A stretch of DNA of 64,000 nt. Origin: Naegleria gruberi (lineage: Eukaryota). The translations under genes were made by a program, and so were the position numbers. The notes beneath the pieces were generated by a model that was not told the origin of the DNA, searched no databases, and was given only the letters and a program-made list of their open reading frames with translations. The stretch lies in the NCBI GenBank assembly GCA_000004985.1, contig GG738897.1; one strand, 5' to 3'. This document shows, piece after piece, positions 19,814-63,500 of the stretch; within the stretch, counting starts at the first letter, position 1, and each line of letters begins with the position of its first letter.

Positions 19814-19885
19814 TCCCGTGTGGTCCAATGGCTAAGATACCTGGCTCTCACCCAGGAGATCCGGGTTCAATTCCCGGCACGGGAG
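19814..19885 (+). tRNA. tRNA-Glu (anticodon CUC)
   Basis: The sequence TCCCGTGTGGTCCAATGGCTAAGATACCTGGCTCTCACCCAGGAGATCCGGGTTCAATTCCCGGCACGGGAG folds as a cloverleaf. The acceptor stem is TCCCGTG/CACGGGA. The anticodon stem is CCTGG/CCAGG with loop CTCTCAC (anticodon CTC). The T-arm is CCGGG-TTCAATT-CCCGG. It closely resembles eukaryotic cytosolic tRNA-Glu. Confidence 0.85.
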
Positions 19886-24964: not shown

Positions 24965-27133
24965 ATGTCAAAAGTTGAATCTGTTGTTTGTATTACACTC
25001 ACAGATTTCCTAGAGAATGAATTGTATCATCAATTAAAAAACAAATTCTCATCACAAACGAAAGGTTTCGTATTGTGGGAATTAAACAAGGAAATTAGTT
25101 TGAAAGAAAAACAATTTCTTCCGATAGAATATTCTAAAGACAAGGAATACATTCAGAAATGTGCAAAAATTTGTGCTTCTCTCGATTATAGAAACAATCA
25201 ATTTTATAGCACATATCTTGTTAGCTCAATTTATCCGAAATTATTATTGGAAAGTTCAGACGAATTACAGAAATACAAATTGAGTGGTATTAAAAAATAT
25301 GCTGATCACCATTCGAATATTAAAAAAACAATGATTTACAATACGAATCCAGAAACTAGAGAGCTAGTTTTGCAAGCTGTCAAGAAAAATGGAAATGATT
25401 TGATGAAATATCAAAAATTTAATTCGGATAGAGAAATTGTTATTGCAGCAATTAGACAGAATGGAAATGGATTATTCTATGCTGGAGTGGAATTGAGAAA
25501 TGACAGAGAGGTAGTGAGAGAATCAATGAAGGTCAACCAGCATACTTTCTATTACATGTCTGATGAGTTGAAGAAGGATAGATCACTAGCTCTGGAAGCT
25601 GTCAAGGAAATTCCAGGATCTATCAGATATGCTCCTGGTGAAATCAAGAATGATAGATCGTTTATAGTGGAAGCTGCTTTATTGAATGGAAAAGTGTTGC
25701 AATTTCTAGATGGAGAATTTTTGAAGGACAGAGAAATTGTGGAGAATGCTGTATCTCAATACGGGTATGCTATTAAATATGCGCCAGAGGAATTTCAAAG
25801 AGATGAATCATTAATGCTAGGTGTTATTAGAAAGGCACTCAGTTTGGATTCAACAGTAGAAGTTTCTGACGATTTGATTTTGAAATATGTTAAAGAGCAT
25901 AATGGTGGATATTTGGCAATTAAATTGGAAAGATGTTGTAATGTAAAAGAAGTTATATTGGGAGCATTGGAGAATAATGGATCTAGATTGAATGAAAATA
26001 ACAAGAGAGAAAGAGAATTCATCTTGGACATGTTGAAAGAAAATTGGGAAATATTCGAAAAGGCAGACGAAAATATCAAGAATGAAAAGCAAGTCTATAC
26101 AAAAGCATTTGGTTTAAATTGTACATTTCTTGAAGATTCCTATAATTCCGAGCTATTCAATGAAATTTTAAATTACAGAAAGAAGATTCTTGACAGCTCT
26201 CCAGTTGGTAAGATCGACAAGGAAATTGCAAGCAAAATTGTGCACCAGAATTTTAATATTTTGAAAGAATGGAATATCACCAGATTAGATGATCAAATTC
26301 ATGAATACTTACACCATTTCAGCAGTGACAGAGATTTCGTGCTACAAGCAGTTTATCTAGATGAGAAATATCTTTCATTTGCTAGTGATTCATTGAAAGA
26401 TGATTTTGATTTCATGGTGACAATTGCACAACATACCCGTAACATGAGAGATGCATCTCCTCGTTTGAAATCAGATCCTCAATTTATCTTACGAGCATTG
26501 GATTATCTTTATGAATTGAAAGCTCCAAAGGAATTGAGAGCTGATAGAGATTTCATGATGAAAGCAGTTCAGAAAGGAACACATCTCTATCACGCCTCTG
26601 ATGATTTAAAGAACGATAAGGAGTTAGTACTCACAGCCATTAAAGGCAGCTACTCGAACATTTCACATGCTAGTAAGGGTCTTCAAAAGGACAGAGAATT
26701 TATTATTGAAGTTTTGAAAATTGATGGAAATTGTTTGAAATATTTGTCAAAGTCTTTCAAAAATGATAGAGAGCTAATTTTGACAGCTGCTCAATCTATC
26801 AATCCTTACATTGATTATGAGTTGTGTTATGAGCTATTTCCAACGGACAGAGAAGTAATGATGGAGTGTACCAAACAATATGGATACGAAATGATTCCTT
26901 ACAATAGCTATCTTAGTGATGAGTTTCGTTTTGATAAGGAATTCATGTTTCAAATTGCTGCTTCAAATAATTCAGCAACTTTGGATGTGTTTGATATATT
27001 TGGAAATGATAAGGATTTAATAATGAGATTGGCACTTGTTTATGGGCTTGTTCAAAAGTTTGATGAAGATATTTATCGAAAGAGAATAGAATTGGTCTTC
27101 AATGGAGTCAAATTACCAACAGATAAATACTAA
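24965..27133 (+). CDS. DUF4116-like repeat protein, 722 aa.
   Basis: ATG at 24965. There are more than 12 tandem units of about 37 aa with the pattern [NK]DRE[IVL]V..A[VI]..NG..L.[YF]A...L (for example NDREVVRESMKVNQHTFYYMSDELKKDRSLALEAVKEIPGSIRYAPGEIKNDRSFIVEAALLNGKVLQFLDGEFLKDREIVENAVSQYGYAIKYAPEEFQRDESLM). This matches the DUF4116 repeat I remember. Confidence 0.6.
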   Translation: MSKVESVVCITLTDFLENELYHQLKNKFSSQTKGFVLWELNKEISLKEKQFLPIEYSKDKEYIQKCAKICASLDYRNNQFYSTYLVSSIYPKLLLESSDELQKYKLSGIKKYADHHSNIKKTMIYNTNPETRELVLQAVKKNGNDLMKYQKFNSDREIVIAAIRQNGNGLFYAGVELRNDREVVRESMKVNQHTFYYMSDELKKDRSLALEAVKEIPGSIRYAPGEIKNDRSFIVEAALLNGKVLQFLDGEFLKDREIVENAVSQYGYAIKYAPEEFQRDESLMLGVIRKALSLDSTVEVSDDLILKYVKEHNGGYLAIKLERCCNVKEVILGALENNGSRLNENNKREREFILDMLKENWEIFEKADENIKNEKQVYTKAFGLNCTFLEDSYNSELFNEILNYRKKILDSSPVGKIDKEIASKIVHQNFNILKEWNITRLDDQIHEYLHHFSSDRDFVLQAVYLDEKYLSFASDSLKDDFDFMVTIAQHTRNMRDASPRLKSDPQFILRALDYLYELKAPKELRADRDFMMKAVQKGTHLYHASDDLKNDKELVLTAIKGSYSNISHASKGLQKDREFIIEVLKIDGNCLKYLSKSFKNDRELILTAAQSINPYIDYELCYELFPTDREVMMECTKQYGYEMIPYNSYLSDEFRFDKEFMFQIAASNNSATLDVFDIFGNDKDLIMRLALVYGLVQKFDEDIYRKRIELVFNGVKLPTDKY

Positions 27134-27193
27134 GGCAAGTTACTTCCTCAATCTACATTAAGAAACGTAATTATTGAGTTAGATTTTTATGGA

Positions 27194-27502
27194 TTGAATG
27201 AAATTAAGCTAATGGCAGTGAAATTTGAAAAGCAAATGGCAATATTTGCATTTAGAAAAATTACCCTTGGGTGGCGTTTATTCTACGATGAGACAAGGAC
27301 CAAGAAAATATATCCGAAAACCTTAATATTGAAAGAATTCCCTCTATTGAGAAGTGTTAGTGGATTAGTTTTTATTGCAAGTGATTGGTTAGTAGATAAG
27401 ATGCAAAATAAGGAACTTGAGAATTTATTGTTAGAAAAAGAAATGGCAGTGGAAAAGATTGAAGATTTTGGTAAAGAAAAATTAATTCTCATGGTTTATT
27501 AG
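27194..27502 (+). CDS. Small hypothetical ORF of 102 aa, possibly spurious.
   Basis: ORF only. No motif recognised. Confidence 0.2.
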   Translation: MNEIKLMAVKFEKQMAIFAFRKITLGWRLFYDETRTKKIYPKTLILKEFPLLRSVSGLVFIASDWLVDKMQNKELENLLLEKEMAVEKIEDFGKEKLILMVY

Positions 27503-27951: not shown

Positions 27952-28022
27952 AGGGAGATAGTTCAGTGGTAGAACATGGGATTGTGGTTCCTAAGATCAG
28001 GGTTCGATTCCCTGTCTTCCTA
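27952..28022 (+). tRNA. tRNA-His (anticodon GUG), copy 1
   Basis: The sequence AGGGAGATAGTTCAGTGGTAGAACATGGGATTGTGGTTCCTAAGATCAGGGTTCGATTCCCTGTCTTCCTA folds as a cloverleaf. The acceptor stem is AGGGAGA/TCTTCCT with one G-U pair. The D-arm is GTTC-AGTGGTA-GAAC. The anticodon stem is TGGGA/TCCTA with loop TTGTGGT (anticodon GTG). The T-arm is CAGGG-TTCGATT-CCCTG and the discriminator is A. Confidence 0.8.
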
Positions 28023-28341
28023 CTTCTTTTTATAACTATTTGTACAAAGCTTGAATTTAATCTGCACTGTATAATGTTAATTTTGAATTTATATTAAGGT
28101 TCAACCAAATCTTGATACTTCCACACTCAACATTTCCAATATTACTTGGTGATTTTCAATTCTCTGTTTATGGTGCTCTGCATATTGGTTCATTTGTATG
28201 ATATTATTTGATTGATCACTTAAATATTACTTTATTAAGCTCATCAATCAAATCGAATATAGTATCAATTCTGTTTCATCATGATCGTGTTGTAATCATG
28301 CTAATTTTCAACAATTAATCAAACATGACAGCATTCTTCAA

Positions 28342-33375: not shown

Positions 33376-33446
33376 TAAAAAGAAGTAGGAAGACAGGGAA
33401 TCGAACCCTGATCTTAGGAACCACAATCCCATGTTCTACCACTGAA
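33376..33446 (-). tRNA. tRNA-His (anticodon GUG), copy 2. Identical to copy 1 but in inverted orientation.
   Basis: The reverse complement of 33376..33446 is identical over all 71 nt to 27952..28022. About 12 nt of 5' flank (AACATGAA) and about 85 nt of 3' flank (CTTCTTTTTATAACTAT..TTTAATCT.CACT.TATA) are also recognisably conserved but diverged. Confidence 0.8.
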
Positions 33447-33540
33447 CTATCTCCCTTTCATGTTATCTGAATCATTAAGGGATTATCTGTGAAAACAACG
33501 AATTTGTAATAGTGTTAAGGGCACATATATTACAGTCCGT

Positions 33541-47077: not shown

Positions 47078-47405
47078 AGTATGATGATAGTATTCTCTTT
47101 ACAGATAGGTAAGTTGTTGAGTGATTGAGTGATGGTGCTTACTCAGAGTATGAAGTTTGAATCTTTTTTTTCAAAGATACCAAGAAGAATATTTCACTTA
47201 CTCACTCTCTAGTTGAATCTCAAGTATGAAGAAGAGCGAAAAAGAGTCTTACTTTGAATTTAAAAAAAACCCAAAAGAATTGGTTGAGATAATAATAAGG
47301 CTCTTAAAGTCCTGTGATAGGAGGAGTTTTCTCAAAAGCACTTTGAGATGTTATTGTTGTAATGGTCTTATTCAATGACACAATAAAGAAAATTCTATTG
47401 TATCA

Positions 47406-47445
47406 GAATATTCTCGAATATTCAATTGAATATTCACTTGAATAC
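47406..47445. promoter_or_regulatory. Heat-shock-element-like GAAnnTTC array, about 330 bp upstream of the Zn2Cys6 gene.
   Basis: The sequence is GAAtaTTCtcGAAtaTTCaattGAAtaTTCacttGAAtac. The first 18 nt form a perfect four-unit nGAAnnTTCnnGAAnnTTC array. Two further GAAtaTTC palindromes follow at 4-nt spacings. Confidence 0.25.
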
Positions 47446-49354
47446 TAAATGAGGACAGTAACAAGATCAGAGACCTTAATGGTCATAGTATAAAGATGGA
47501 ACGACGATATCGTCGGTTGGCAAGGAATTATGACATTTTTTTCAAAGAATATTTGACAAATTCATTGTCGTATGACATTTCAATAATAATTTAAATTATT
47601 ATTGTGATAATTACAATAACAGTTGATGAGCATGACGAGAATATGAAAAACAAACCTGAATAGATAAAAAAACAGTGAGTGTAATATTTAGATGGATTGC
47701 AAAATGAATACACTCGAGTGAATTGTTGGATAATAAAAATTCGTGATGGCCAACAAGTAGGAGTTGCTGTTGCTGTTGCAGAGATGAGTCTTGCAGGGTT
47801 ATTGTTGTTTTTTTAGAAGAAGAAATTCGCTATTATCTGTTTGCTACATCCTTTGATGAATCTCGAGTTAATCTGTGGTGAATGGTCGTGCACAAACCGA
47901 GAATGTACAGTCCACCTTTGGTTCGGACAAGTGCGTTAAAACTATAAATGGGGACAAATGCGCTAAATGTAAAAAAAGTGATTATGCTGGGAAACAACAT
48001 TATGAAAACAAATGACTTGAAACCAATATCAGAGAGGGTTCTTAAATGAAAGTTAACATGATCATGAACTGGTTCTATAATTCTTCTTCTATCAATGGTT
48101 GAAACTATTGATTCTATTCAACAGAATACACTGAGAATCTTTGTAAATCCATCACGCAATTCCATTCTTATACCAACAATAACAGGTGTTGACAAGGAAA
48201 CCTGTTATTTAGGTCAAGATTACAGTTGGCAAATCGAGCTTATTTCCAAACTTTTTCAAGGATCATTAGTAGCTGTTCGGAAATTAAATCTCAATGTTCA
48301 GATTATTGGCGTTGGGTTTATTTAGCTATTCGTAAGATTGTGCCTTAAATGATACACAGAAAAAATGTCGTTTTAAAGCTTCAATTAAGGAATTAAGATG
48401 AGAATCTTGCCGTCCCATAAAAGTTGGTTAATTTTAAAGATGGTATTATGAAACTTACCTTGAGGTGATCATGCCGATATTATTGAGTGAGTTGATGAGC
48501 AATTTATAGCACATTAGCTTCTCCAAACATATCTCCTTAATGCATTGCAATGGAAAGGCTTCTGGTGTACAAAACCCTTTTCAAAAGGTTTTTTTGAGGA
48601 GGAGGTAATCTAATTGGTGTAATTTGTCATTTAAGGGTTCGAACCGAACTTGACCATGCAAGTCGTATAGTTGAAGGAATGATTAAGGCGAATTGGAGGT
48701 TTTACACTCAAAACTTACACGTTGTATCGAATTGTTGTAAAGTTTAAGAGGAATGGAAATGAGGAGAACCTTCAGCACTTCTTAATGTACGAATCCTTCC
48801 ATTGTGGTGATGACACTGATGTTTAATAGTGATTAGTATTGACAATATTGTTATTGAGGAAGAGTATAGAATGACTACAGCTGGATCCAATTTAAAATAT
48901 TGGGATTCTCTTCTTTCGTGCATTTTCCACTACAACTATTAAAGATTTAATGTCCATTGACAAGTGTTTAATTGATTGTAATCGAATAAATACTATTGAT
49001 TGACACTTACTGATGTTCCAAAAGTACAACTTTGGTTTGACAGTTGTCATGTTGGGAATATTGCAAGATACAACAAATTCAGAAAGAGAACCGGCACTCG
49101 AATCTTTACAAAACTGTTTGGCAATTTACGATTTTTGTAACCCATTTACTCTATCTATTGAGGATCTTCATTTATTTGTAAATTACAGACTTGTCATTTT
49201 GAATATTTTGAATATTTACATGATTTTGCATCTCTAGATATAAAATAACGACATAGAGGTGATGACCTAGATGTTTCTGCACAGTTGAGTTTCATTTTCT
49301 TCCACTTTCTTCCACATTCCTTCTCCTTCTCGTTGAGGAAGTTGTACTCGACCA

Positions 49355-49396
49355 GAGGGTTTTCGTCGTAATTGTTATAACACAACGAAAACCCTC
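49355..49396. other. Perfect 12-bp inverted repeat (hairpin GAGGGTTTTCGT / ACGAAAACCCTC with an 18-nt loop).
   Basis: Read directly from the sequence. The hairpin lies about 310 bp upstream of the NDH-2 start in an ORF-poor region. Confidence 0.4.
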
Positions 49397-49706
49397 AAGG
49401 TTTCAAAACAACTTTACAAAGTGTTGAAATTTCTTACTAATTTTCTGATTTTTTCAAAATTCAATCAACAATAAGATCCTCAACAATATAAAGAATCCAA
49501 TACTCCCCGACCAATCAAAAACAAAACCTCAATTCCCTCTCACTTTTATTAATAATCTCATCTTAGGCAATTTTGGAAATAATCCGGCGCGGTAGAAAAA
49601 CGCAAAAGAATGAACTTTAATTTTCAAATATAAAAAAAAATTTAAAAGCAAAGTGTAATTAGCAAAATCATTCCCGATCGTTTATCTATAGAGAATTATA
49701 AAGAAA

Positions 49707-51256
49707 ATGATCATCGGAAAGAGTAGTAGTAGTTTGATGCAAAAGAAGAGTTTGATCTTGATGATGGTCAATTCATTCTCTCGAACAAGTTTGAAATACA
49801 ATAAGAAGCAATTTTCTGCTAATTTATTGTCATTGACCACAACAAGTAATCAATCAGTGAGCAATTCAACATCCTCATCAGTTGAAAATACATTGAGTAA
49901 GGAAATTAGAGAGAAAATTATGGAAAATCAAAAGGTGATTGCTTCTCAATCTGCAAATAAGAAGAAACAAAATCTTGTCATTTTGGGTTCTGGATGGGCT
50001 GGCTTTCGTTTGATTAAAAAGATTGATTTGGAAAAGTATAATGTTAATGTAGTGACTCCGAGAAATCATTTCCTTTTCACTCCATTATTGCCTGGGTCTG
50101 CTTGTGGTACAGTTGAATTGAGATCAATTATTGAACCTGTGAGAAGAGCAGTTCATCACGAAGATTATCATTACTATGAGGGAAAGGCAGTTGCTGTTGA
50201 TACTGAAAATCAAAGAGTTATTTGCAAGCCAAATTATGAAAATGATCCAAATTTCACACTTCCATACGACAAGTTGGTGGTTGCAGTTGGATGTGACGTG
50301 AATGATTTTGGAATTAAGGGAGTAAAGGACTATACCTTCCCATTGAAAGAAATTTCACACGCCAGAACTATCAGACAACAAATTACTCAATGTTTTGAAA
50401 GAGCTTCCAATCCATCCACTCCAGTTCACTTACGTGAAACTCTATTGCAGTAAGTTTTTAAATAACTTTCGATTTTACAAAATTATTTAATTGAAAATGT
50501 AGTTTTGTCATTGTTGGTGCTGGTGCAACTGGTGTAGAGTTTGCTGCTGAATGTCACGATTTGATTAGAGATTTGTCAAGAAACTTCCCTCCAGAAATCA
50601 TGGAGGAGGTCAGTATGACAGTAATTGAGGCAGGAAGTACTGTCTTGTCTGCATTTGATTCTTCCCTTCAAAAGTATACTCAAAAATTCTTCCGTAGAAA
50701 TCACATCAAGATTAGAACCAATCAACAAGTTAAGGAGGTACTATCTCCAAACTCACTCAAACTTCAAGATGGATCCATTATTGAGTGTGGAATGATTGTT
50801 TGGAGTGCTGGTATTAAACCAAGATAAATAGAAATTTCCCAAGGAAGACAACTTCCAATCGATCCAAAAACTAAAAAGATTATTGTGGATGATCATTTAC
50901 ACGTGAAGGGATTTGATAATATTTGGGCCTTGGGTGATATTTCGCTCATTGAAACTGTTCCACTTGCAGCCACTGCACAAGTAGCCCAACAGCAAGGACT
51001 CTATGTGGCTCGTCATTTGAATGGTGAAATTGAGGAGAGTAAGCCATTTGTTTACCATCACATGGGTCAATTGGCCTATATTGGTAATTATAGAGCTATT
51101 AGTCAAGTTGGTGCAGTCAAGAGTGGAGGTTTCTTGAGTTGGCTCTTTTGGAGATCTGCCTACATGACAAGATTAGTCTCAATCAGAAACAAATTCAATG
51201 TCTTACTCAATTGGACCTCAACCTTTTGGTTTGGAAGAGACATTAGTAGATTTTAA
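49707..51256 (+). CDS. Type II NADH dehydrogenase (NDH-2, NDI1-like alternative NADH:quinone oxidoreductase). One intron plus one in-frame TAA.
   Basis: Exon 1 is 49707..50449 (ATG at 49707) and ends at a GTAAGT donor at 50450. The acceptor is AAATGTAG, and exon 2 starts at 50503. The spliced sequence reads ...RETLL-H-FVIVGAGATGVEFAAE. The first dinucleotide-binding motif is LVILGSGWAGF...VVTPRNHFLFTPLLPGSACGTVELRSIIEPVRR. The second is FVIVGAGATGVEFAAE. The ALGD motif is DNIWALGD. An in-frame TAA at 50825..50827 lies between WSAGIKPR and IEISQGRQLPIDPKTKKIIVDDHLHV. This is a region co-linear with yeast Ndi1 [36 protein letters not shown]. Confidence 0.75.
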
Positions 51257-56824: not shown

Positions 56825-59800
56825 ATGGTACAAGAGAAACATTATCTTTTGCCACTTTCTAATAATATTTCGAATAAGAATATCCAGCAGCCAATTCATG
56901 AAGGAATGAATCGACAGCAGCTTCCCTTCACTCCGCCATCCTCGTCATCATCACTGCCGGTGGACACACATGAACAGTCATCAACAGGATTCGACAAAAC
57001 TTGTGAGAATGTGCACGAAACTGTTCCACATCACCAACATTCTTTAAAAGAAATGGGTGAAAATGAAATTTCTCACTTTGAAAACATGATAGGGTCTCTT
57101 TCACCTGAGAAGAAACAATCTCTCATCTATTCGATTCTTCAACATCAATTTCAAGATCAGAATCAAATAGTCAGTATGTTGATGGAAGAATTACCACTCC
57201 CCACCACATCAACAGATGTGAATAATTTGGCATCATCATCACCACCACTTTCTTCATCTCTAGATTCTAATAATTTAATGATGATGAATTCGGAATCTAA
57301 TCATCATCATCATTCTAATGTACTATTGATGAGCAATAACAGTAATAATAGTAATGGTAATCGTGGTGCTGAATTTCAATCAATAACTCCTCTTGAAGAA
57401 TTGTGGTTTCGATCCATGAATAATTGTTCATCATCACCTCCTATTAATTATAATAATAATTATAATAATAATTGGATGTTTGATGGTAGTAGCGGAAAAG
57501 TATCTTGTTCATTGCCTAATAATTATCAAATTGGTGGTGGTTTGATATTTTCCAATATTGATGACAATGAACCTCAACAACAACAATTTAATAATCGTCA
57601 TCATTACGAACATAATAATATCAAACAACAACAAGAAGAATACATGATGATCGGAAAATCATTTCCGCCATCAAACGCCTCATCGGTTCATTTGCAAAAA
57701 CTAATGCAAGTCTATCATCAACAAAAACAACAAGAATTGAATCAACAACAAGCACCTTGGACGAACAATCAAATTATACTAGGTGGTGCCGTTGGAGAGC
57801 AACACAATATTGTCAACACCCTTAACAAGTCTCAATTGCTGCCAAATCCAACTACAACAAACTGTAATGAAAAAGCAAATCCAGAAAAAGGCTTGTTGGC
57901 TAATGAGGCTCATTTAGGATTTGATATTGCTCCTTCGCAAAACATCACTTCAACCACTTACCAAAGAGGTTCTAGTTCATTACTCTCACAACATTTGAAA
58001 GATTCCATGAGCAATAATGGAACAACAACATGTTTAAATGAATCTTTCACAAACAATGTTCATGGTGGTGTACAACATGGTTGCATTGTTGGTGGTACAA
58101 GGGATGCCAATGGTAGCAGTTTGCTTCTTGCTTCCAACTTGCCAAGGGAGAAATTAATGAATCAACAACAACCACCAATATTCAGCCAAACTCATTTGCC
58201 TCAATATGAAAATATGGTAACGGATTTAATCCAACACCAATTATCCTCTTCTCCATCAACTACACCACCAAGCGGACATGAATTTAATGCTACAACAAGT
58301 CGCACTATGGATTGTGTTGGGAACGAATCTTTTTCCTTCAACAACAAGTCGACTGGTGAATTAATCATCCCATCTTGTCAACCTTATGTCTCATCTTTTT
58401 CCTCATTTACCAAGGTGGCCAGGCCAACAAAAGATGCAGAGGCGAATCTCAGCAAATCTAATTCTGGACCAAACAACGTTCCAAACAACAAAAAAGAGAC
58501 ACAACCTCCCTCCTTTTTTACTTCGAGCAACACTATAATTGGAGCCGTGTCAACGAGAATATCAAACTCTCCTCCAATACTTACACCATCATCATCATTA
58601 GCAAGTAGTGCATTGATAACTGGTGATTCAAAGATTTATAATAGTAATACGCTCAATAGTTCCAACGTGCCTTCCATAAATTCCTCTCAATTAATATCAT
58701 CTTCATCTGTTGGTAGTACAACAAACATACAACAAGAACAACAACAGAATAATCTGAGTGGCCTTCATTTAAATAGGAATAGCCAACAAGAAGAACAGTC
58801 ATATAACAATATTACCACCTCTGGAAACAGTCAAATCAATAGAAATCCTCCTCACCATGCTGCTGTAATGAATAACAATCCTTCATTGCCAACTTCCAAT
58901 AGTACGAGTTATCAACAAACATCACCAACATCTTCTCAAATTCAACACCAACAAAATTATCTTCTCCCCCAACAACACCTTCATCAATCCCTCCCTCAAA
59001 ACAATCTTCAACAATCCTCATTCATTAATGGAGCTTCAGTGATGAATGGATTTCCGAACTATCAACCAAACAATTTACAAACATCTGGCCATATAGATGC
59101 ACCACAGCAGCCATCAAGTACATTTACCAGTCAACAACAACAATTCCAAACAATGAGAAGTTCAACCCGAGAGTCCCAGGCAAAAGAATCAGATGATGAA
59201 CCTTATCTTCCAAAACAATTTTCTGTTCTCCCTCCATCATCTAAACGTCGTATGAAAAGAAAGACTGACCAAACATCCAGGAGTACTACTGTTGCAAATG
59301 TGCCATCCAACACAATTAGCAGCTTGAATTCAACTCTCCTAAAGAAAATGACTGTAGATATGTATTATGATATAACGAGTGCTGGACATCCATTCTTACC
59401 GAGAGAAGATTTGGAAAATCTTTCTGTAAATGATGACCAAAGAACAAATCTTGCTTTCATGTTTTCCCTGCAGACCTTATGTTATCAACGTTTTGGTCTG
59501 ACAAAGCAAGCACATGACTCTTTTGAAAAGGCAAAGAATCTTGTCCTGTTTAACCCTAGCGATCCTAATTTATTTAATACGGCTTGTACATATGTTAATT
59601 TAGCTCTATACTGTAATTCATCAGGAGATCCTGAAAATGCAAACAAATTTTCAAGAATTCTAGATTACAATATTTTAAGAGACGACTCATTTAGAGACTC
59701 TCAAAATCCTGAACAATTGAAGGCACTAACTCAAATGAAAAAGATTTCGGATATTTCTGGTGGATCTGGTTATTATGGAGATGATAGAGGACTGAATGAT

Positions 59801-60724
59801 GTTTCTAAGTTTATTCTCTCCATTTACCAATATTCAACTGGTGGTGAACGTCCTGTTCCCACTGAAATGATGCAAATAGCTAGGCAACCTCTTAATATGG
59901 ACACATTACCTGAATATTTAAGTTTATTGGACTGTGTCATGAAAATGATGTTAATTTATGAATCTAAAGGTTTACACTTTTCAGAATCTCAAAAAAAGAT
60001 GACCAAATATTTGTACTATGGACTTTCATATGGTATGAAGATTCTTCTCCTCAAATTGTGTGGTTTCAAGGGTCCAGAATTGGAAGAAGCAGCTGAAAAG
60101 ATTACTCTTCTATGTAGAACTCCAACTTTTACATTTGCACCAACATTTTTGATCCAACCTGTTGGTTTGGCACTTGATGTTCACTGTGAAATGTTAAAAG
60201 AAATTGACCAGGGCGAGAGAAGTAATGTTGAAGAATTCAAAATTGCCAAATTACTAAGAAATGATATCGAGTCTCTAAGATTTTTAACCTCTCGATATCC
60301 AGAGCTGTGTGCCAACTTTAATCCATCTCTCGATCTAGCAGAATCACTTTTGGAAAAGAAGGGAAGAAGTTTGTCAAGATTTTTGGATGCTGATATTTAT
60401 TCATCGAATAGTGGAGGAGTTACTATTATTGAGGATGAGCTCAAAGTTATTGAAGGACAAATCAAGGAATCTGCCAAAACGAAGAGAAAATCTAGAGAAG
60501 ATGAAAGTACCAATGATAACTTTGGAAATACACCTAATACCACAACATCCACCGATCTGAACTCAAATCCTCACAATATGCAACCTCCAAATTCCTTTAT
60601 TCCAATTATTTCGGAAGAGTTCCCTAAAAATTATGGCTTTGATCCTCTGGCATTCCTTTCTGAAGAAGATTATGAATTGTTATTTGGAGAAGATCAAAAA
60701 AGTGTTACCACTGATTATTATTAA
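56825..60724 (+). CDS. Large protein of 1299 aa with a Q/N/S/T-rich low-complexity N-terminus. Hypothetical, possibly a transcriptional regulator.
   Basis: ATG at 56825. About 800 aa are low-complexity (poly-Q/N, Ser/Thr/Pro runs). A structured C-terminal region of about 450 aa follows (LPREDLENLSVNDDQRTNLAFMFSLQTLCYQRFGL...). It is loosely reminiscent of the C-terminal regulatory region of the Zn2Cys6 factor at 43645..45931. No DNA-binding motif found. Confidence 0.5.
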   Translation: MVQEKHYLLPLSNNISNKNIQQPIHEGMNRQQLPFTPPSSSSSLPVDTHEQSSTGFDKTCENVHETVPHHQHSLKEMGENEISHFENMIGSLSPEKKQSLIYSILQHQFQDQNQIVSMLMEELPLPTTSTDVNNLASSSPPLSSSLDSNNLMMMNSESNHHHHSNVLLMSNNSNNSNGNRGAEFQSITPLEELWFRSMNNCSSSPPINYNNNYNNNWMFDGSSGKVSCSLPNNYQIGGGLIFSNIDDNEPQQQQFNNRHHYEHNNIKQQQEEYMMIGKSFPPSNASSVHLQKLMQVYHQQKQQELNQQQAPWTNNQIILGGAVGEQHNIVNTLNKSQLLPNPTTTNCNEKANPEKGLLANEAHLGFDIAPSQNITSTTYQRGSSSLLSQHLKDSMSNNGTTTCLNESFTNNVHGGVQHGCIVGGTRDANGSSLLLASNLPREKLMNQQQPPIFSQTHLPQYENMVTDLIQHQLSSSPSTTPPSGHEFNATTSRTMDCVGNESFSFNNKSTGELIIPSCQPYVSSFSSFTKVARPTKDAEANLSKSNSGPNNVPNNKKETQPPSFFTSSNTIIGAVSTRISNSPPILTPSSSLASSALITGDSKIYNSNTLNSSNVPSINSSQLISSSSVGSTTNIQQEQQQNNLSGLHLNRNSQQEEQSYNNITTSGNSQINRNPPHHAAVMNNNPSLPTSNSTSYQQTSPTSSQIQHQQNYLLPQQHLHQSLPQNNLQQSSFINGASVMNGFPNYQPNNLQTSGHIDAPQQPSSTFTSQQQQFQTMRSSTRESQAKESDDEPYLPKQFSVLPPSSKRRMKRKTDQTSRSTTVANVPSNTISSLNSTLLKKMTVDMYYDITSAGHPFLPREDLENLSVNDDQRTNLAFMFSLQTLCYQRFGLTKQAHDSFEKAKNLVLFNPSDPNLFNTACTYVNLALYCNSSGDPENANKFSRILDYNILRDDSFRDSQNPEQLKALTQMKKISDISGGSGYYGDDRGLNDVSKFILSIYQYSTGGERPVPTEMMQIARQPLNMDTLPEYLSLLDCVMKMMLIYESKGLHFSESQKKMTKYLYYGLSYGMKILLLKLCGFKGPELEEAAEKITLLCRTPTFTFAPTFLIQPVGLALDVHCEMLKEIDQGERSNVEEFKIAKLLRNDIESLRFLTSRYPELCANFNPSLDLAESLLEKKGRSLSRFLDADIYSSNSGGVTIIEDELKVIEGQIKESAKTKRKSREDESTNDNFGNTPNTTTSTDLNSNPHNMQPPNSFIPIISEEFPKNYGFDPLAFLSEEDYELLFGEDQKSVTTDYY

Positions 60725-60825
60725 TTCTTTTTGAAAGATACCAACAAGATTAAATAAAGTTGTTATCAAGATTATCAAAAATGTTCAAAAATGTGGCGCC
60801 AAATTTTTAAACTAGAACAAAAAAA

Positions 60826-62442
60826 ATGTCGACAACCAATACGAACGAATCTGCTGCTGATGGATCATCTTCTAATAGTAATGGTGGTAGCAATAATCAT
60901 GGTTTGTCAATAAGACATGTTGATTCCACATTTAAAAGTAACACCGTTCCAATCCATCGTTCATCTACTAGTAGATTAGGATCAATCACTAATAGTACAA
61001 CAACTAATCACAATGTTTCATCTGCATCACCATCACCATCAAGACCAATTTCCATTCCATCAAATCCTAGTGATATCTTTCTCTTTAAAGGGTTTTTACC
61101 TCTCGATAAAAATTCCTTTCCATCACACTATATGTTTAATTGTAATACATTGGAAGGGATTGGCTTTCTTCCCGATCAAATGTTTCAATTATTTGCACAA
61201 ATTTTAGCCTATGAATATATAAGAAAAGGACAAACCATTCCTAATAGTGTTATGTGTGGTTTAACATATTTTCAAGAAATTTGTACTCTAAGAAAAAGAA
61301 GAATTATTCCAAATGAAATTTTACCAAGAGAACGACAAATTACAACAACTATGGGAGCTCCACTTCACACTATTGGATCAACCAATAATTTGACCTTTAT
61401 TCAACACGTATCGAGTTCTAAACATCCTGGAGTTGTTTCTGCTAAACCAATTAGTGAATCTCCTGTAAATTCCAATGTTTCTACTAGTAATATTCCACCT
61501 CCTCAACCACAAGAAAAGACCTCTTCATCATCATCAACAACATCCCAAACACCAGCAAGTACTGCATCAAATAATCCACCAATAGAAAGTAATGCTGGTC
61601 AATCTGAAAAATCCTCAACTACCACCACTGAAACCAATCTTGTAAATTCAACCACACCTCCACCAAACAATGACGAAAACTCAAATTCCAACCTTGTAAC
61701 AATCGATCGAGCACAACAATTAACATATAGAGTTGTTAAGCCACAACCAAATTTATTGGAGACTAATTTAACACTTATTGGATTGGAGGCGTGTTCGTAT
61801 TTATGTGACTCTTTCCCTGAAGGAAATGCAAAATTTAAAGAATTACTTGTCACACCAATAGTTAATCCTCATCTCCCAATTACAAATTCTTCCAATAATA
61901 CTAGTAGTAGTGATACAACAAGCTCTTCATCAACAATATCTGAGAAACAACCAGAGAAAGCCAAAGAAAACTCTCCTAAAATTCAAAAACCAATTGAGGT
62001 AATAACAGTCGATGATGAAACACCTAAAAAACCTCTTCCAACCACTAAGAAAACCAATAATATCACTACTACAAATGTTACAAGACCATCTAGATCCAAA
62101 ATTATTACAACCCCAATCAGGCAATTAGAGCTTTCCTCCTCAGATGAAGAATCTCCAGAAGTTGTGGCAGAAGAAAACAAAAAGAGGAAAAGGAAAACAA
62201 TAACCACTAAAAGAAAGAAAAAGGAAAAGAAAACTAAGAAGAATCACCTAGGTAATGATATTTATACTGTTGAAAAAGTATTGCGTAAGAAAATAAGAGA
62301 ATCCTCTGAGCCTGAATATCTAGTCAAATGGCAAGGATATGGCGAAGAAGATAACTCGTGGGTAAAAGAGTCAGATATGTTGGATAAAGCTCTTATCCAG
62401 AATTTTCGAGGAACAGTCGAATATGAAAAGAAATCCAAATAA
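60826..62442 (+). CDS. Chromodomain protein (HP1/Polycomb-type chromo domain at the C-terminus), 538 aa.
   Basis: ATG at 60826. The C-terminal DIYTVEKVLRKKIRESSEPEYLVKWQGYGEEDNSWVKESDMLDKALIQNF matches the chromodomain consensus (EyvVEkIL.rR.....veYLvKWkGy.e..nTWEPe.nl). It is preceded by a Lys-rich NLS-like block (KKRKRKTITTKRKKKEKKTKK) and a long Ser/Thr/Asn-rich region. Confidence 0.7.
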   Translation: MSTTNTNESAADGSSSNSNGGSNNHGLSIRHVDSTFKSNTVPIHRSSTSRLGSITNSTTTNHNVSSASPSPSRPISIPSNPSDIFLFKGFLPLDKNSFPSHYMFNCNTLEGIGFLPDQMFQLFAQILAYEYIRKGQTIPNSVMCGLTYFQEICTLRKRRIIPNEILPRERQITTTMGAPLHTIGSTNNLTFIQHVSSSKHPGVVSAKPISESPVNSNVSTSNIPPPQPQEKTSSSSSTTSQTPASTASNNPPIESNAGQSEKSSTTTTETNLVNSTTPPPNNDENSNSNLVTIDRAQQLTYRVVKPQPNLLETNLTLIGLEACSYLCDSFPEGNAKFKELLVTPIVNPHLPITNSSNNTSSSDTTSSSSTISEKQPEKAKENSPKIQKPIEVITVDDETPKKPLPTTKKTNNITTTNVTRPSRSKIITTPIRQLELSSSDEESPEVVAEENKKRKRKTITTKRKKKEKKTKKNHLGNDIYTVEKVLRKKIRESSEPEYLVKWQGYGEEDNSWVKESDMLDKALIQNFRGTVEYEKKSK

Positions 62443-62458
62443 ACTCTTCACAATAATC

Positions 62459-63500
62459 TCAGTAATCATAATCATCTTCATCTTTGAATGTTTTGGATTG
62501 TGGTTGTTGAATTTCATTCAATTCTTTCATCACATCCAATCCTTCTCCTCCATACATCATGTAACACATCATCATATCCTCTTTAGTGAGTTGACCAATA
62601 TCTTCTGGCATTTGATAATCTGATGCAACTCCAAAACCTAATAGCCCATAATTTGAGTTATCAAAGGTATCCATTCCATACATGCTATTATACTGGTCTT
62701 CCAACAATTTGGCTTGGGTTGCTTGAGAGGTTGTGTTATCACTCTTCTTTTTCAAGACATCCTTCTTTACAAAACTAACCAACTCACTCATTGAATTTCT
62801 AAAATGATAAATAATTGACCACAATTCATTTGCATATGGTGCCACTCTTTTCATTATAATATCCTCAATAATCTGCTCTTCTAATTCATTAGGTTTGTGA
62901 TTTTCATCCTTTTCCAAATCAATTTCATCTTTATCATTCGTATACTCGGCAAAACAATTAGCCAAAATATGTGAAATATTTCCCTCGTCATATAATTTAC
63001 ATTTCCTATCAAAATAATGATTATCCTCCTCATCCCAATATTCTATATCCACTCTATCACCAGTTTTAATTCTAGCCTTTCCATTCTTTGTTTCCACCAT
63101 TTCTTCATCTTCATTCGCCAATACATCAAAGTAATAATTAGAAGTCTCACTTTCCTATATCATACAATTCATACATCATATTCATCAATTCCAAATAAAT
63201 TTAATAATGCCATTCCGAACATAATAATTAATATTCAATAATTAAATATGTTAAATATAATAATAATTAAATCATCATCACAAGAAATACAAAATATAAC
63301 AATAACAAAACAATAGAAGAAATTACGATAATAATACATCAATGATTCCTTACATGACTAGTCTTTACAAATCTATAACGTTGTTGTTTGGCTGCTTGGA
63401 ATCTTGTTCTGGCTTCGGAAGAGCAATCAGGACAGCCATCCTTCTCGAAAGGAGGTTCAAAGAAGGAACCATGTTTACATCCACATTTAATTTGATTCAT
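62459..63500 (-). CDS. Hypothetical acidic protein. Two exons, with an N-terminal Cys-containing mini-domain.
   Basis: Exon 1 is 63500..63354 (ATG; MNQIKCGCKHGSFFEPPFEKDGCPDCSSEARTRFQAAKQQRYRFVKTSH; ends CAT|GTAAGG). Exon 2 is 63154..62459 (acceptor GATATAG; phase 0: ESETSNYYFDVLANEDEEMVETKNGK...). The antisense ORF 63342..63536 listed in the track is therefore an artefact. Confidence 0.5.

What the first reader, a model, noticed from the sequence alone, without database searches (positions are those of the whole stretch)
50825..50827. In-frame TAA stop interrupts an otherwise intact, conserved NDH-2 (NDI1-like) coding sequence
After a bona fide GTAAGT...TAG intron, the NDH-2 frame runs ...IVWSAGIKPR-TAA-IEISQGRQLPIDPKTKKIIVDDHLHVKGFDNIWALGD... 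with no frame change. The segment is co-linear with yeast Ndi1 ([17 protein letters not shown]...). The downstream 123 codons are clearly conserved, for example the ALGD motif. The only GT..AG pairs that could splice out the stop give 21-39-nt micro-introns. These would also delete the conserved Gly of the WxxG motif. Possible explanations are programmed stop-codon readthrough, a very recent pseudogenising mutation, a sequencing error or an editing event.
Basis: seen in the sequence. Interest (0 to 1): 0.6.

Follow-up and report, generated by a model that had tools for sequence, protein, structure and literature searches.

The report
One-base nonsense change in Naegleria NDH-2
An otherwise intact and evolutionarily constrained alternative NADH dehydrogenase gene in the Naegleria gruberi reference genome has one Gln codon (CAA) changed to a stop (TAA), which looks like a very young null allele or a base-call error, not a special recoding signal.

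Summary
The window comes from Naegleria gruberi NEG-M. A two-exon NDH-2 gene (49707..50449 and 50503..51256, with a 53-nt intron) has one in-frame TAA at 50825..50827. This is codon 356 of 498.

The closest relative I found, an environmental Naegleria-like contig about 86% identical in protein, has CAA (Gln) at that codon. Three more distant relatives have AAA, CAC and GAA. So the stop is not conserved and lies one C>T step from a sense codon.

dN/dS against that relative is 0.06 upstream of the stop and 0.05 downstream, so the 142 downstream codons were under purifying selection until very recently.

Nothing supports recoding:
- The context is TAA-A, the commonest genuine terminator in this window.
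- The downstream RNA shows no unusual structure.
- The same gene ends in TAA directly after the conserved C-terminus.
- No other homology-supported in-frame stop occurs in the 64 kb.
- Every frame-preserving GT..AG excision would delete invariant residues.

A truncated product would lose the FAD-binding GD motif and the NDH2_C membrane domain.

Verdict: an ordinary nonsense substitution, either a real young or heterozygous null allele or a consensus error. These tools cannot tell the two apart. Low interest.

The parts
49707..50449 (+). NDH-2 exon 1 (codons 1-247 plus the first two bases of codon 248). It includes the first dinucleotide-binding motif GSGWAG at 49986..50003.
   Evidence: translation; Pyr_redox_2 from residue 89; homologues.
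50450..50502 (+). 53-nt spliceosomal intron, GTAAGT...TAG, phase 2.
   Evidence: An intron sits at the same position in Willaertia magna L002 and in L004, where it is 46 nt.
50503..51256 (+). NDH-2 exon 2 (codons 248-498 plus the terminator). It includes the second motif GAGATG at 50516..50533, the GD motif at 50933..50938 and the NDH2_C domain at about 51059..51241.
50825..50827 (+). In-frame TAA at codon 356. The orthologous codon is CAA in L004, AAA in L005, CAC in Willaertia and GAA in L001.
51254..51256 (+). Genuine TAA terminator directly after the conserved C-terminal GRDISRF. L004 also has TAA here.

Best explanation
The TAA is a real, evolutionarily very young nonsense substitution (CAA Gln to TAA, one C>T transition) in the NDH-2 gene of N. 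gruberi NEG-M. It is most plausibly one allele of this heterozygous, mitotically propagated laboratory strain, or a mutation fixed recently in it. The codon acts as an ordinary terminator. Translation would stop after residue 355. The fragment would lack the last ~57 residues of the FAD/NAD(P)-binding domain, including the invariant GD motif, and the whole C-terminal membrane-anchoring NDH2_C domain, so it would be inactive. The cell tolerates this because it has complex I and a second, expressed NDH-2 paralogue, and possibly an intact second allele. Shown here: the stop, its one-step distance from the Gln codon of the closest relative, the absence of other lesions, past purifying selection on both sides of the stop, and the ordinary terminator context. 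Inferred: that the base is real and not a consensus error, the zygosity, and the loss of function.
For:: the window is N. gruberi NEG-M; there is a single in-frame stop and no other lesion; the closest relative has CCA AGA CAA where NEG-M has CCA AGA TAA, and the other relatives have AAA, CAC and GAA; dN/dS is 0.060 upstream and 0.047 downstream, with dS of 1.0-1.5, and the last 45 residues are identical in protein despite many synonymous differences. The lesion must therefore be very recent. Pyr_redox_2 spans residues 89-413 and NDH2_C spans 434-494, so truncation at 355 removes essential parts. G392 and D393 are invariant. TAA ends 21 of 28 long ORFs, and TAA-A (10 of 28) is the commonest stop context; no N. 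gruberi protein model exists for this locus, and no N. fowleri or N. lovaniensis protein appears among the 120 best of 2,233 hits listed, which suggests the gene is dispensable in the genus. PMC9035749: N. gruberi expresses another NDH-2, XP_002672148.1. [quoted passage not shown]
Against: I could not obtain any independent read or assembly of N. gruberi across this base. A consensus error in the Sanger draft therefore produces the same picture. The perfect integrity of the rest of the gene fits an error equally well.
Confidence: 0.55

Rival explanations
1. A base-call or consensus error in the N. gruberi NEG-M draft assembly. The true codon is CAA (Gln) and the gene is simply intact and functional.
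For: The change is a single base, one step from the CAA of the closest relative. There is no other defect. Constraint downstream is undiminished. This is the only homology-supported in-frame stop in 64 kb.
Against: Substitution errors that happen to create a stop are rare in multi-fold Sanger consensus. Real heterozygous nonsense alleles are expected to be at least as common in a heterozygous clonal diploid. That comparison is my own order-of-magnitude reasoning, not a computation. Nothing here tests it directly.
Confidence: 0.33
2. Programmed or functionally significant stop-codon readthrough. The ribosome decodes UAA with a near-cognate tRNA (Gln, Lys or Tyr) and makes full-length NDH-2, possibly alongside a truncated isoform.
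For: The downstream 142 codons are intact and conserved. Near-cognate decoding of UAA by tRNA-Gln would restore the ancestral residue (general knowledge).
Against: The context is UAA-A, the commonest genuine terminator in this window, and generally the least leaky kind (general knowledge). The 100 nt from the stop onward fold no better than shuffles (z = -0.68). The stop is absent from all four relatives, whereas programmed readthrough sites are conserved. No suppressor tRNA lies in the window. Downstream conservation is explained by ancestry from an uninterrupted gene.
Confidence: 0.04
3. The stop is removed from the mRNA, either by splicing of a small or non-canonical intron or by RNA editing. 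A further variant is that TAA is a sense codon in this organism.
For: Eleven frame-preserving GT..AG pairs of 21-180 nt span the stop and give an open frame.
Against: None has the GTAAGT donor of the real introns of this gene. All delete residues that are invariant or conserved, including W348 and G351. The segment is co-linear and coding in L004, with third-position differences. The real introns seen here are 46-53 nt. The gene itself, and 21 of 28 long ORFs, terminate in TAA, and CAA is used freely for Gln, so TAA is not a sense codon. To my knowledge, nuclear mRNA editing is not known in Heterolobosea.
Confidence: 0.02
4. An old, decaying unitary pseudogene.
For: The locus has no protein model. 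No ortholog from N. fowleri or N. lovaniensis appears among the 120 best hits listed.
Against: There is only one lesion in 498 codons. dN/dS downstream is 0.047, as low as upstream. The intron boundaries, start codon and terminator are all intact.
Confidence: 0.03

Closest known systems
Young nonsense (null) alleles and unitary pseudogenes in heterozygous clonal diploids and laboratory-adapted strains
   Same: A single point mutation turns a sense codon into a stop in a gene that is otherwise intact and was recently under constraint. A paralogue and possibly a second allele provide redundancy.
   Different: Zygosity and even the reality of the base are unverified here, because no read data were available.
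Type II NADH:quinone oxidoreductase (NDH-2; yeast Ndi1, PDB 4G6G; bacterial NDH-2)
   Same: It has the Pyr_redox_2, Pyr_redox and NDH2_C domains, two GxGxxG motifs and a GD motif. It aligns end to end with Ndi1 and with bacterial NDH-2.
   Different: The reading frame is interrupted at codon 356. By sequence it is nearer bacterial (Bacteroidota/Ignavibacteriota-type) enzymes at about 48-50% identity than Ndi1. It is a different locus from the expressed N. gruberi NDH-2 XP_002672148.1.
Programmed stop-codon readthrough (e.g. UAG-CARYYA in tobamoviruses, UGA-CUA in metazoan and fungal MDH/LDH peroxisomal isoforms)
   Same: An in-frame stop is followed by conserved coding sequence.
   Different: The stop is UAA-A and not a leaky context. 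There is no downstream structure. The stop is not conserved in orthologues. The downstream part is the indispensable core of the enzyme and not an optional extension.
Variant nuclear genetic codes with UAA/UAG = Gln (many ciliates, some green algae, diplomonads, aphelids)
   Same: TAA sits where the closest relative has Gln.
   Different: There is one occurrence in 64 kb. TAA is the main genuine terminator, including in this gene. Gln is otherwise encoded by CAA and CAG.

Membership tests
NDH-2 (type II NADH:quinone oxidoreductase) | Pyr_redox_2 two-Rossmann-fold core plus the NDH2_C membrane-anchoring domain | tested here: met
   PF07992 at residues 89-413 (E = 3e-48), PF00070 at 248-328, PF22366 at 434-494 (E = 2e-17), on the conceptual translation with the stop read as Gln.
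NDH-2 (type II NADH:quinone oxidoreductase) | Two GxGxxG dinucleotide-binding motifs and the FAD-binding GD motif | tested here: met
   Read from the sequence: GSGWAG (residues 94-99), GAGATG (253-258), G392-D393 invariant. The GD motif lies downstream of the stop.
NDH-2 (type II NADH:quinone oxidoreductase) | Sequence homology to experimentally characterised NDH-2 structures | tested here: met
   Ndi1 4G6G, E = 1.5e-67; Plasmodium NDH2 5JWA, E = 1e-55; bacterial NDH-2 4NWZ, E = 1.6e-33.
NDH-2 (type II NADH:quinone oxidoreductase) | Uninterrupted reading frame that can encode the whole enzyme | tested here: not met
   TAA at codon 356 in the reference sequence.
Programmed stop-codon readthrough site | Leaky stop context (UGA-C, UAG-CARYYA or similar) | tested here: not met
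   the context is AGA-TAA-ATA. TAA-A is the most frequent genuine terminator tetranucleotide in the window (10 of 28).
Programmed stop-codon readthrough site | Stimulatory RNA structure just downstream | tested here: not met
   MFE -15.4 kcal/mol against a shuffle mean of -13.4, z = -0.68; 46 of 200 shuffles fold at least as well.
Programmed stop-codon readthrough site | The stop codon is conserved in orthologues | tested here: not met
   CAA, AAA, CAC and GAA in the four relatives; sense residues in all 14 homologues.
Programmed stop-codon readthrough site | Full-length protein actually produced | not testable with these tools
   Needs proteomics or ribosome profiling of NEG-M.
Variant genetic code (TAA = Gln) | In-frame TAA recurs in many conserved genes, and TAA is not used as a terminator | tested here: not met
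   only one homology-supported case in 64 kb. TAA terminates this gene at its conserved C-terminus and ends 21 of 28 long ORFs.
Spliceosomal (micro-)intron covering the stop | Canonical boundaries, and removal leaves the conserved protein intact | tested here: not met
   eleven frame-preserving GT..AG pairs, none with a GTAAGT donor. All remove conserved residues. The segment is coding in L004.
Long-standing pseudogene | Multiple disabling lesions and relaxed constraint (dN/dS approaching 1) | tested here: not met
   a single lesion; dN/dS is 0.047 downstream and 0.060 upstream.
Young nonsense allele or consensus error | One-step distance from the ancestral sense codon in an otherwise intact gene | tested here: met
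   CAA in the closest relative, TAA in NEG-M.
Young nonsense allele or consensus error | Base confirmed, or contradicted, by independent reads of the same strain | not testable with these tools
   No N. gruberi contig covering the locus could be retrieved.

The most novel reading that the evidence does not exclude
The TAA is real and homozygous, and N. gruberi still makes functional full-length NDH-2 by efficient readthrough of a UAA-A stop, inserting Gln by near-cognate decoding. That would be context-independent readthrough in a heterolobosean, and a possible early step towards stop-codon reassignment.
Probability: 0.03. Interest if true: 0.6.

Novelty: already known. Interest (0 to 1): 0.1.

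Why it matters
It matters very little beyond annotation. If the base is real, N. gruberi NEG-M carries a null allele of a bacterial-type NDH-2 that Willaertia, Acrasis and other Naegleria-like amoebae keep intact. That is worth knowing for anyone modelling the branched respiratory chain of this model amoeba, or using NEG-M as a proxy for N. fowleri drug targets. If the base is an error, the reference lacks a valid gene model for a respiratory enzyme, and a model should be added. Neither case touches an open question about the genetic code or recoding.

Tried and rejected
1. Independent N. gruberi sequence across the stop. Exact-product look-ups for the exon-1 ORF and for the two downstream neighbour genes found nothing. 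The look-up for the chromodomain gene also found nothing. An ENA metagenome contig 98.7% identical to the window exists (L003), but it covers 57181..63414 only. A protein search with the 142 C-terminal residues found no near-identical fragment. A degenerate DNA pattern and a protein-guided scan of JGI metagenomes found no close relative.
2. Variant code. Rejected on the window-wide scan for stops flanked by open frames and on terminator usage.
3. Micro-intron. Rejected.
4. Readthrough-stimulating structure. None found.
5. Suppressor tRNA or other RNA gene nearby. Only tRNA-Glu and two tRNA-His.
6. Old pseudogene. Rejected by dN/dS.
7. The other stops flanked by long open frames (27131, 36680, 45711, 54795). 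The flanking translations look non-coding or are the normal ends of genes.

Full report
**What is there.** The region reads as a two-exon gene on the + strand. Exon 1 is 49707..50449. A 53-nt GTAAGT...TAG intron follows at 50450..50502. Exon 2 is 50503..51256. The spliced CDS is 1497 nt. It has one internal stop, TAA at 50825..50827, which is codon 356 of 498, and it ends in TAA at 51254..51256. Two details need correcting. The open frame after the stop is 142 codons; 123 is only the GTG-started sub-ORF. And frame-preserving GT..AG pairs exist up to 180 nt, not only 21-39 nt.

**Whose genome it is.** Six long ORFs from the window are exact matches to GenBank proteins of Naegleria gruberi strain NEG-M (EFC39705, EFC39708, EFC39715, EFC39716, EFC39775, EFC39784) on a 326,913-bp contig. 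No N. gruberi protein corresponds to the NDH-2 locus, neither in a full-length search nor in a search with the C-terminal 142 residues. The locus therefore appears to be unannotated.

**What the gene is.**
- With the stop read as Gln, the conceptual protein has Pyr_redox_2 (residues 89-413), Pyr_redox (248-328) and NDH2_C (434-494).
- It aligns with yeast Ndi1 (4G6G, E = 1.5e-67), Plasmodium NDH2 and bacterial NDH-2 structures.
- Its best database relatives are Willaertia magna (69% identity), an unnamed Logan contig (61%) and Acrasis kona (54%). After those come hundreds of bacterial NDH-2 at about 48-50%.
- It has both GxGxxG motifs and an invariant GD motif at G392-D393.
- The intron position is shared with Willaertia and with the contig L004.

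**The orthologous codon.** A search with the C-terminal part recovered two ORF fragments from ENA metagenome assemblies that span the site.
- L004 is 78% identical in DNA and about 86% in protein to the NEG-M gene, so it is a fairly close Naegleria-like relative.
- At the site, NEG-M reads CCA AGA TAA ATA GAA and L004 reads CCA AGA CAA TTG GAA.
- L005 has AAA, Willaertia has CAC and L001 has GAA. All 14 aligned homologues have a sense residue there: K, E, H, S, T, R, D or L.
- The stop is therefore not conserved. It lies one C>T transition from the Gln codon of the nearest relative.

**How old it is.** I computed Nei-Gojobori estimates between NEG-M and L004 with my own script.
- Upstream of the stop (223 codons): dN = 0.062, dS = 1.03, dN/dS = 0.060.
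- Downstream of the stop (142 codons): dN = 0.070, dS = 1.50, dN/dS = 0.047.
- The last 45 residues are identical in protein despite many synonymous differences.
- dS is near saturation, so the ratios are rough. Even so, the downstream part shows no relaxation at all, and the gene has no second lesion. The stop must be extremely recent compared with the divergence of these taxa, or it is not real.

**Tests of the more interesting readings.**
1. Variant code. In 64 kb, five stops are flanked by at least 70 open codons on both sides. Of these, only the NDH-2 stop has homology support on both sides. TAA ends 21 of 28 ORFs of at least 250 codons. It ends this very gene directly after the conserved GRDISRF, as it does in L004.
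2. Programmed readthrough.
   - The tetranucleotide is TAA-A, the commonest genuine terminator context in the window, at 10 of 28.
   - The 100 nt from the stop onward fold no better than shuffles (z = -0.68).
   - The stop is absent from all relatives.
   - The window holds only tRNA-Glu(CTC) and two tRNA-His(GTG).
3. Micro-intron.
   - Eleven GT..AG pairs restore an open frame.
   - None has the GTAAGT donor of the real introns.
   - All delete invariant or conserved residues, including W348 and G351.
   - The segment is co-linear and coding in L004.
4. Old pseudogene. Excluded.

**Consequence if the stop is real.** Termination at codon 356 removes residues 356-413 of the FAD/NAD-binding fold, including the GD motif, and the whole NDH2_C domain. 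I infer that the product would be inactive. N. gruberi has complex I and another NDH-2, XP_002672148.1, which is detected in proteomes (PMC9035749). Its accession number is about 300 below those of this contig's proteins, which suggests a different scaffold, and it did not appear as a near-identical hit. No N. fowleri or N. lovaniensis protein appears among the 120 best of 2,233 hits listed. That suggests this paralogue is dispensable in the genus. The inference is indirect, since only annotated proteins were searchable.

**Real mutation or error.** This is the one question I could not settle. No independent N. gruberi sequence across the base could be retrieved. A second N. gruberi-like genome does exist in ENA metagenome ERZ929261 (L003, 98.7% identical over 6.2 kb), but the contig found lies 6 kb downstream of the gene. 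Naegleria is described as mainly a heterozygous diploid propagating mitotically (PMC9928731), and NEG-M is a long-kept axenic laboratory strain (my own knowledge). In such genomes, heterozygous nonsense alleles are expected to be at least as common as stop-creating substitution errors in a multi-fold Sanger consensus. That is my own order-of-magnitude reasoning and not a measurement. I therefore put about 0.55 on a real young or heterozygous null allele, about 0.33 on a consensus error, and about 0.1 on everything else combined.

**Verdict.** The event is an ordinary single-base nonsense change, CAA to TAA. Nothing supports recoding, editing, unusual splicing or a variant code. Interest is low. 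The useful outcome is an annotation note: a valid bacterial-type NDH-2 gene or allele at 49707..51256 is missing from the N. gruberi protein set.

Noticed in passing
window ~51121 (between codons K454 and S455); L004 1017-1064; L005 ~1900-1940: The Naegleria-like relatives L004 and L005 have an extra short intron (48 nt, GTAAGT..ACAG in L004) after ...GAVK|S. N. gruberi NEG-M and Willaertia lack it. This is a precise intron presence/absence difference within one gene.
   Followed up: partly
window 47100..49700: About 2.6 kb directly upstream of the NDH-2 gene has no ORF of 120 aa or more, in an otherwise gene-dense window. GC skew is unusually high (+0.30) at 46-48 kb. No Rfam family matches. 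It could be a multi-intron gene, a degenerate element or a long intergenic region.
   Followed up: partly
window 49707..51256: The NDH-2 locus has no corresponding N. gruberi protein in the 5.8-billion-protein collection. It therefore seems to be missing from the public annotation, presumably because of the in-frame stop.
   Followed up: partly
window 49707..51256 versus one search hits: This NDH-2 is shared by Heterolobosea (Willaertia, Acrasis, Naegleria-like contigs). Its next-best relatives are bacterial (Bacteroidota, Ignavibacteriota, Hydrogenedentota) at about 48-50% identity, well above yeast Ndi1. That is compatible with a bacterial-type NDH-2 lineage or an old lateral transfer. No phylogeny was made.
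   Followed up: no
L003 (ENA ERZ929261, run ERR1078381, project PRJEB11402) versus window 57181..63414: An environmental metagenome contig is 98.7% identical (31 mismatches, 17 gap openings over 6.2 kb) to the NEG-M sequence. A very close N. gruberi strain is therefore present in that sample, and it could serve as a sister-strain check if its NDH-2 locus can be assembled.
   Followed up: partly
window 24965..27133 (+) and 27134..27502: A 722-aa protein is made of 11 DUF4116 repeats. Its plain ORF is not an exact match to any database protein, so the public gene model differs. Its TAA is followed by 122 open codons in the same frame, with no Pfam match; these look non-coding.
   Followed up: partly
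window 27952..28023 (+) and 33385..33456 (-); 19814..19885 (+): Two tRNA-His(GTG) genes with the same Rfam score lie in opposite orientation 5.4 kb apart. There is also one tRNA-Glu(CTC).
   Followed up: no
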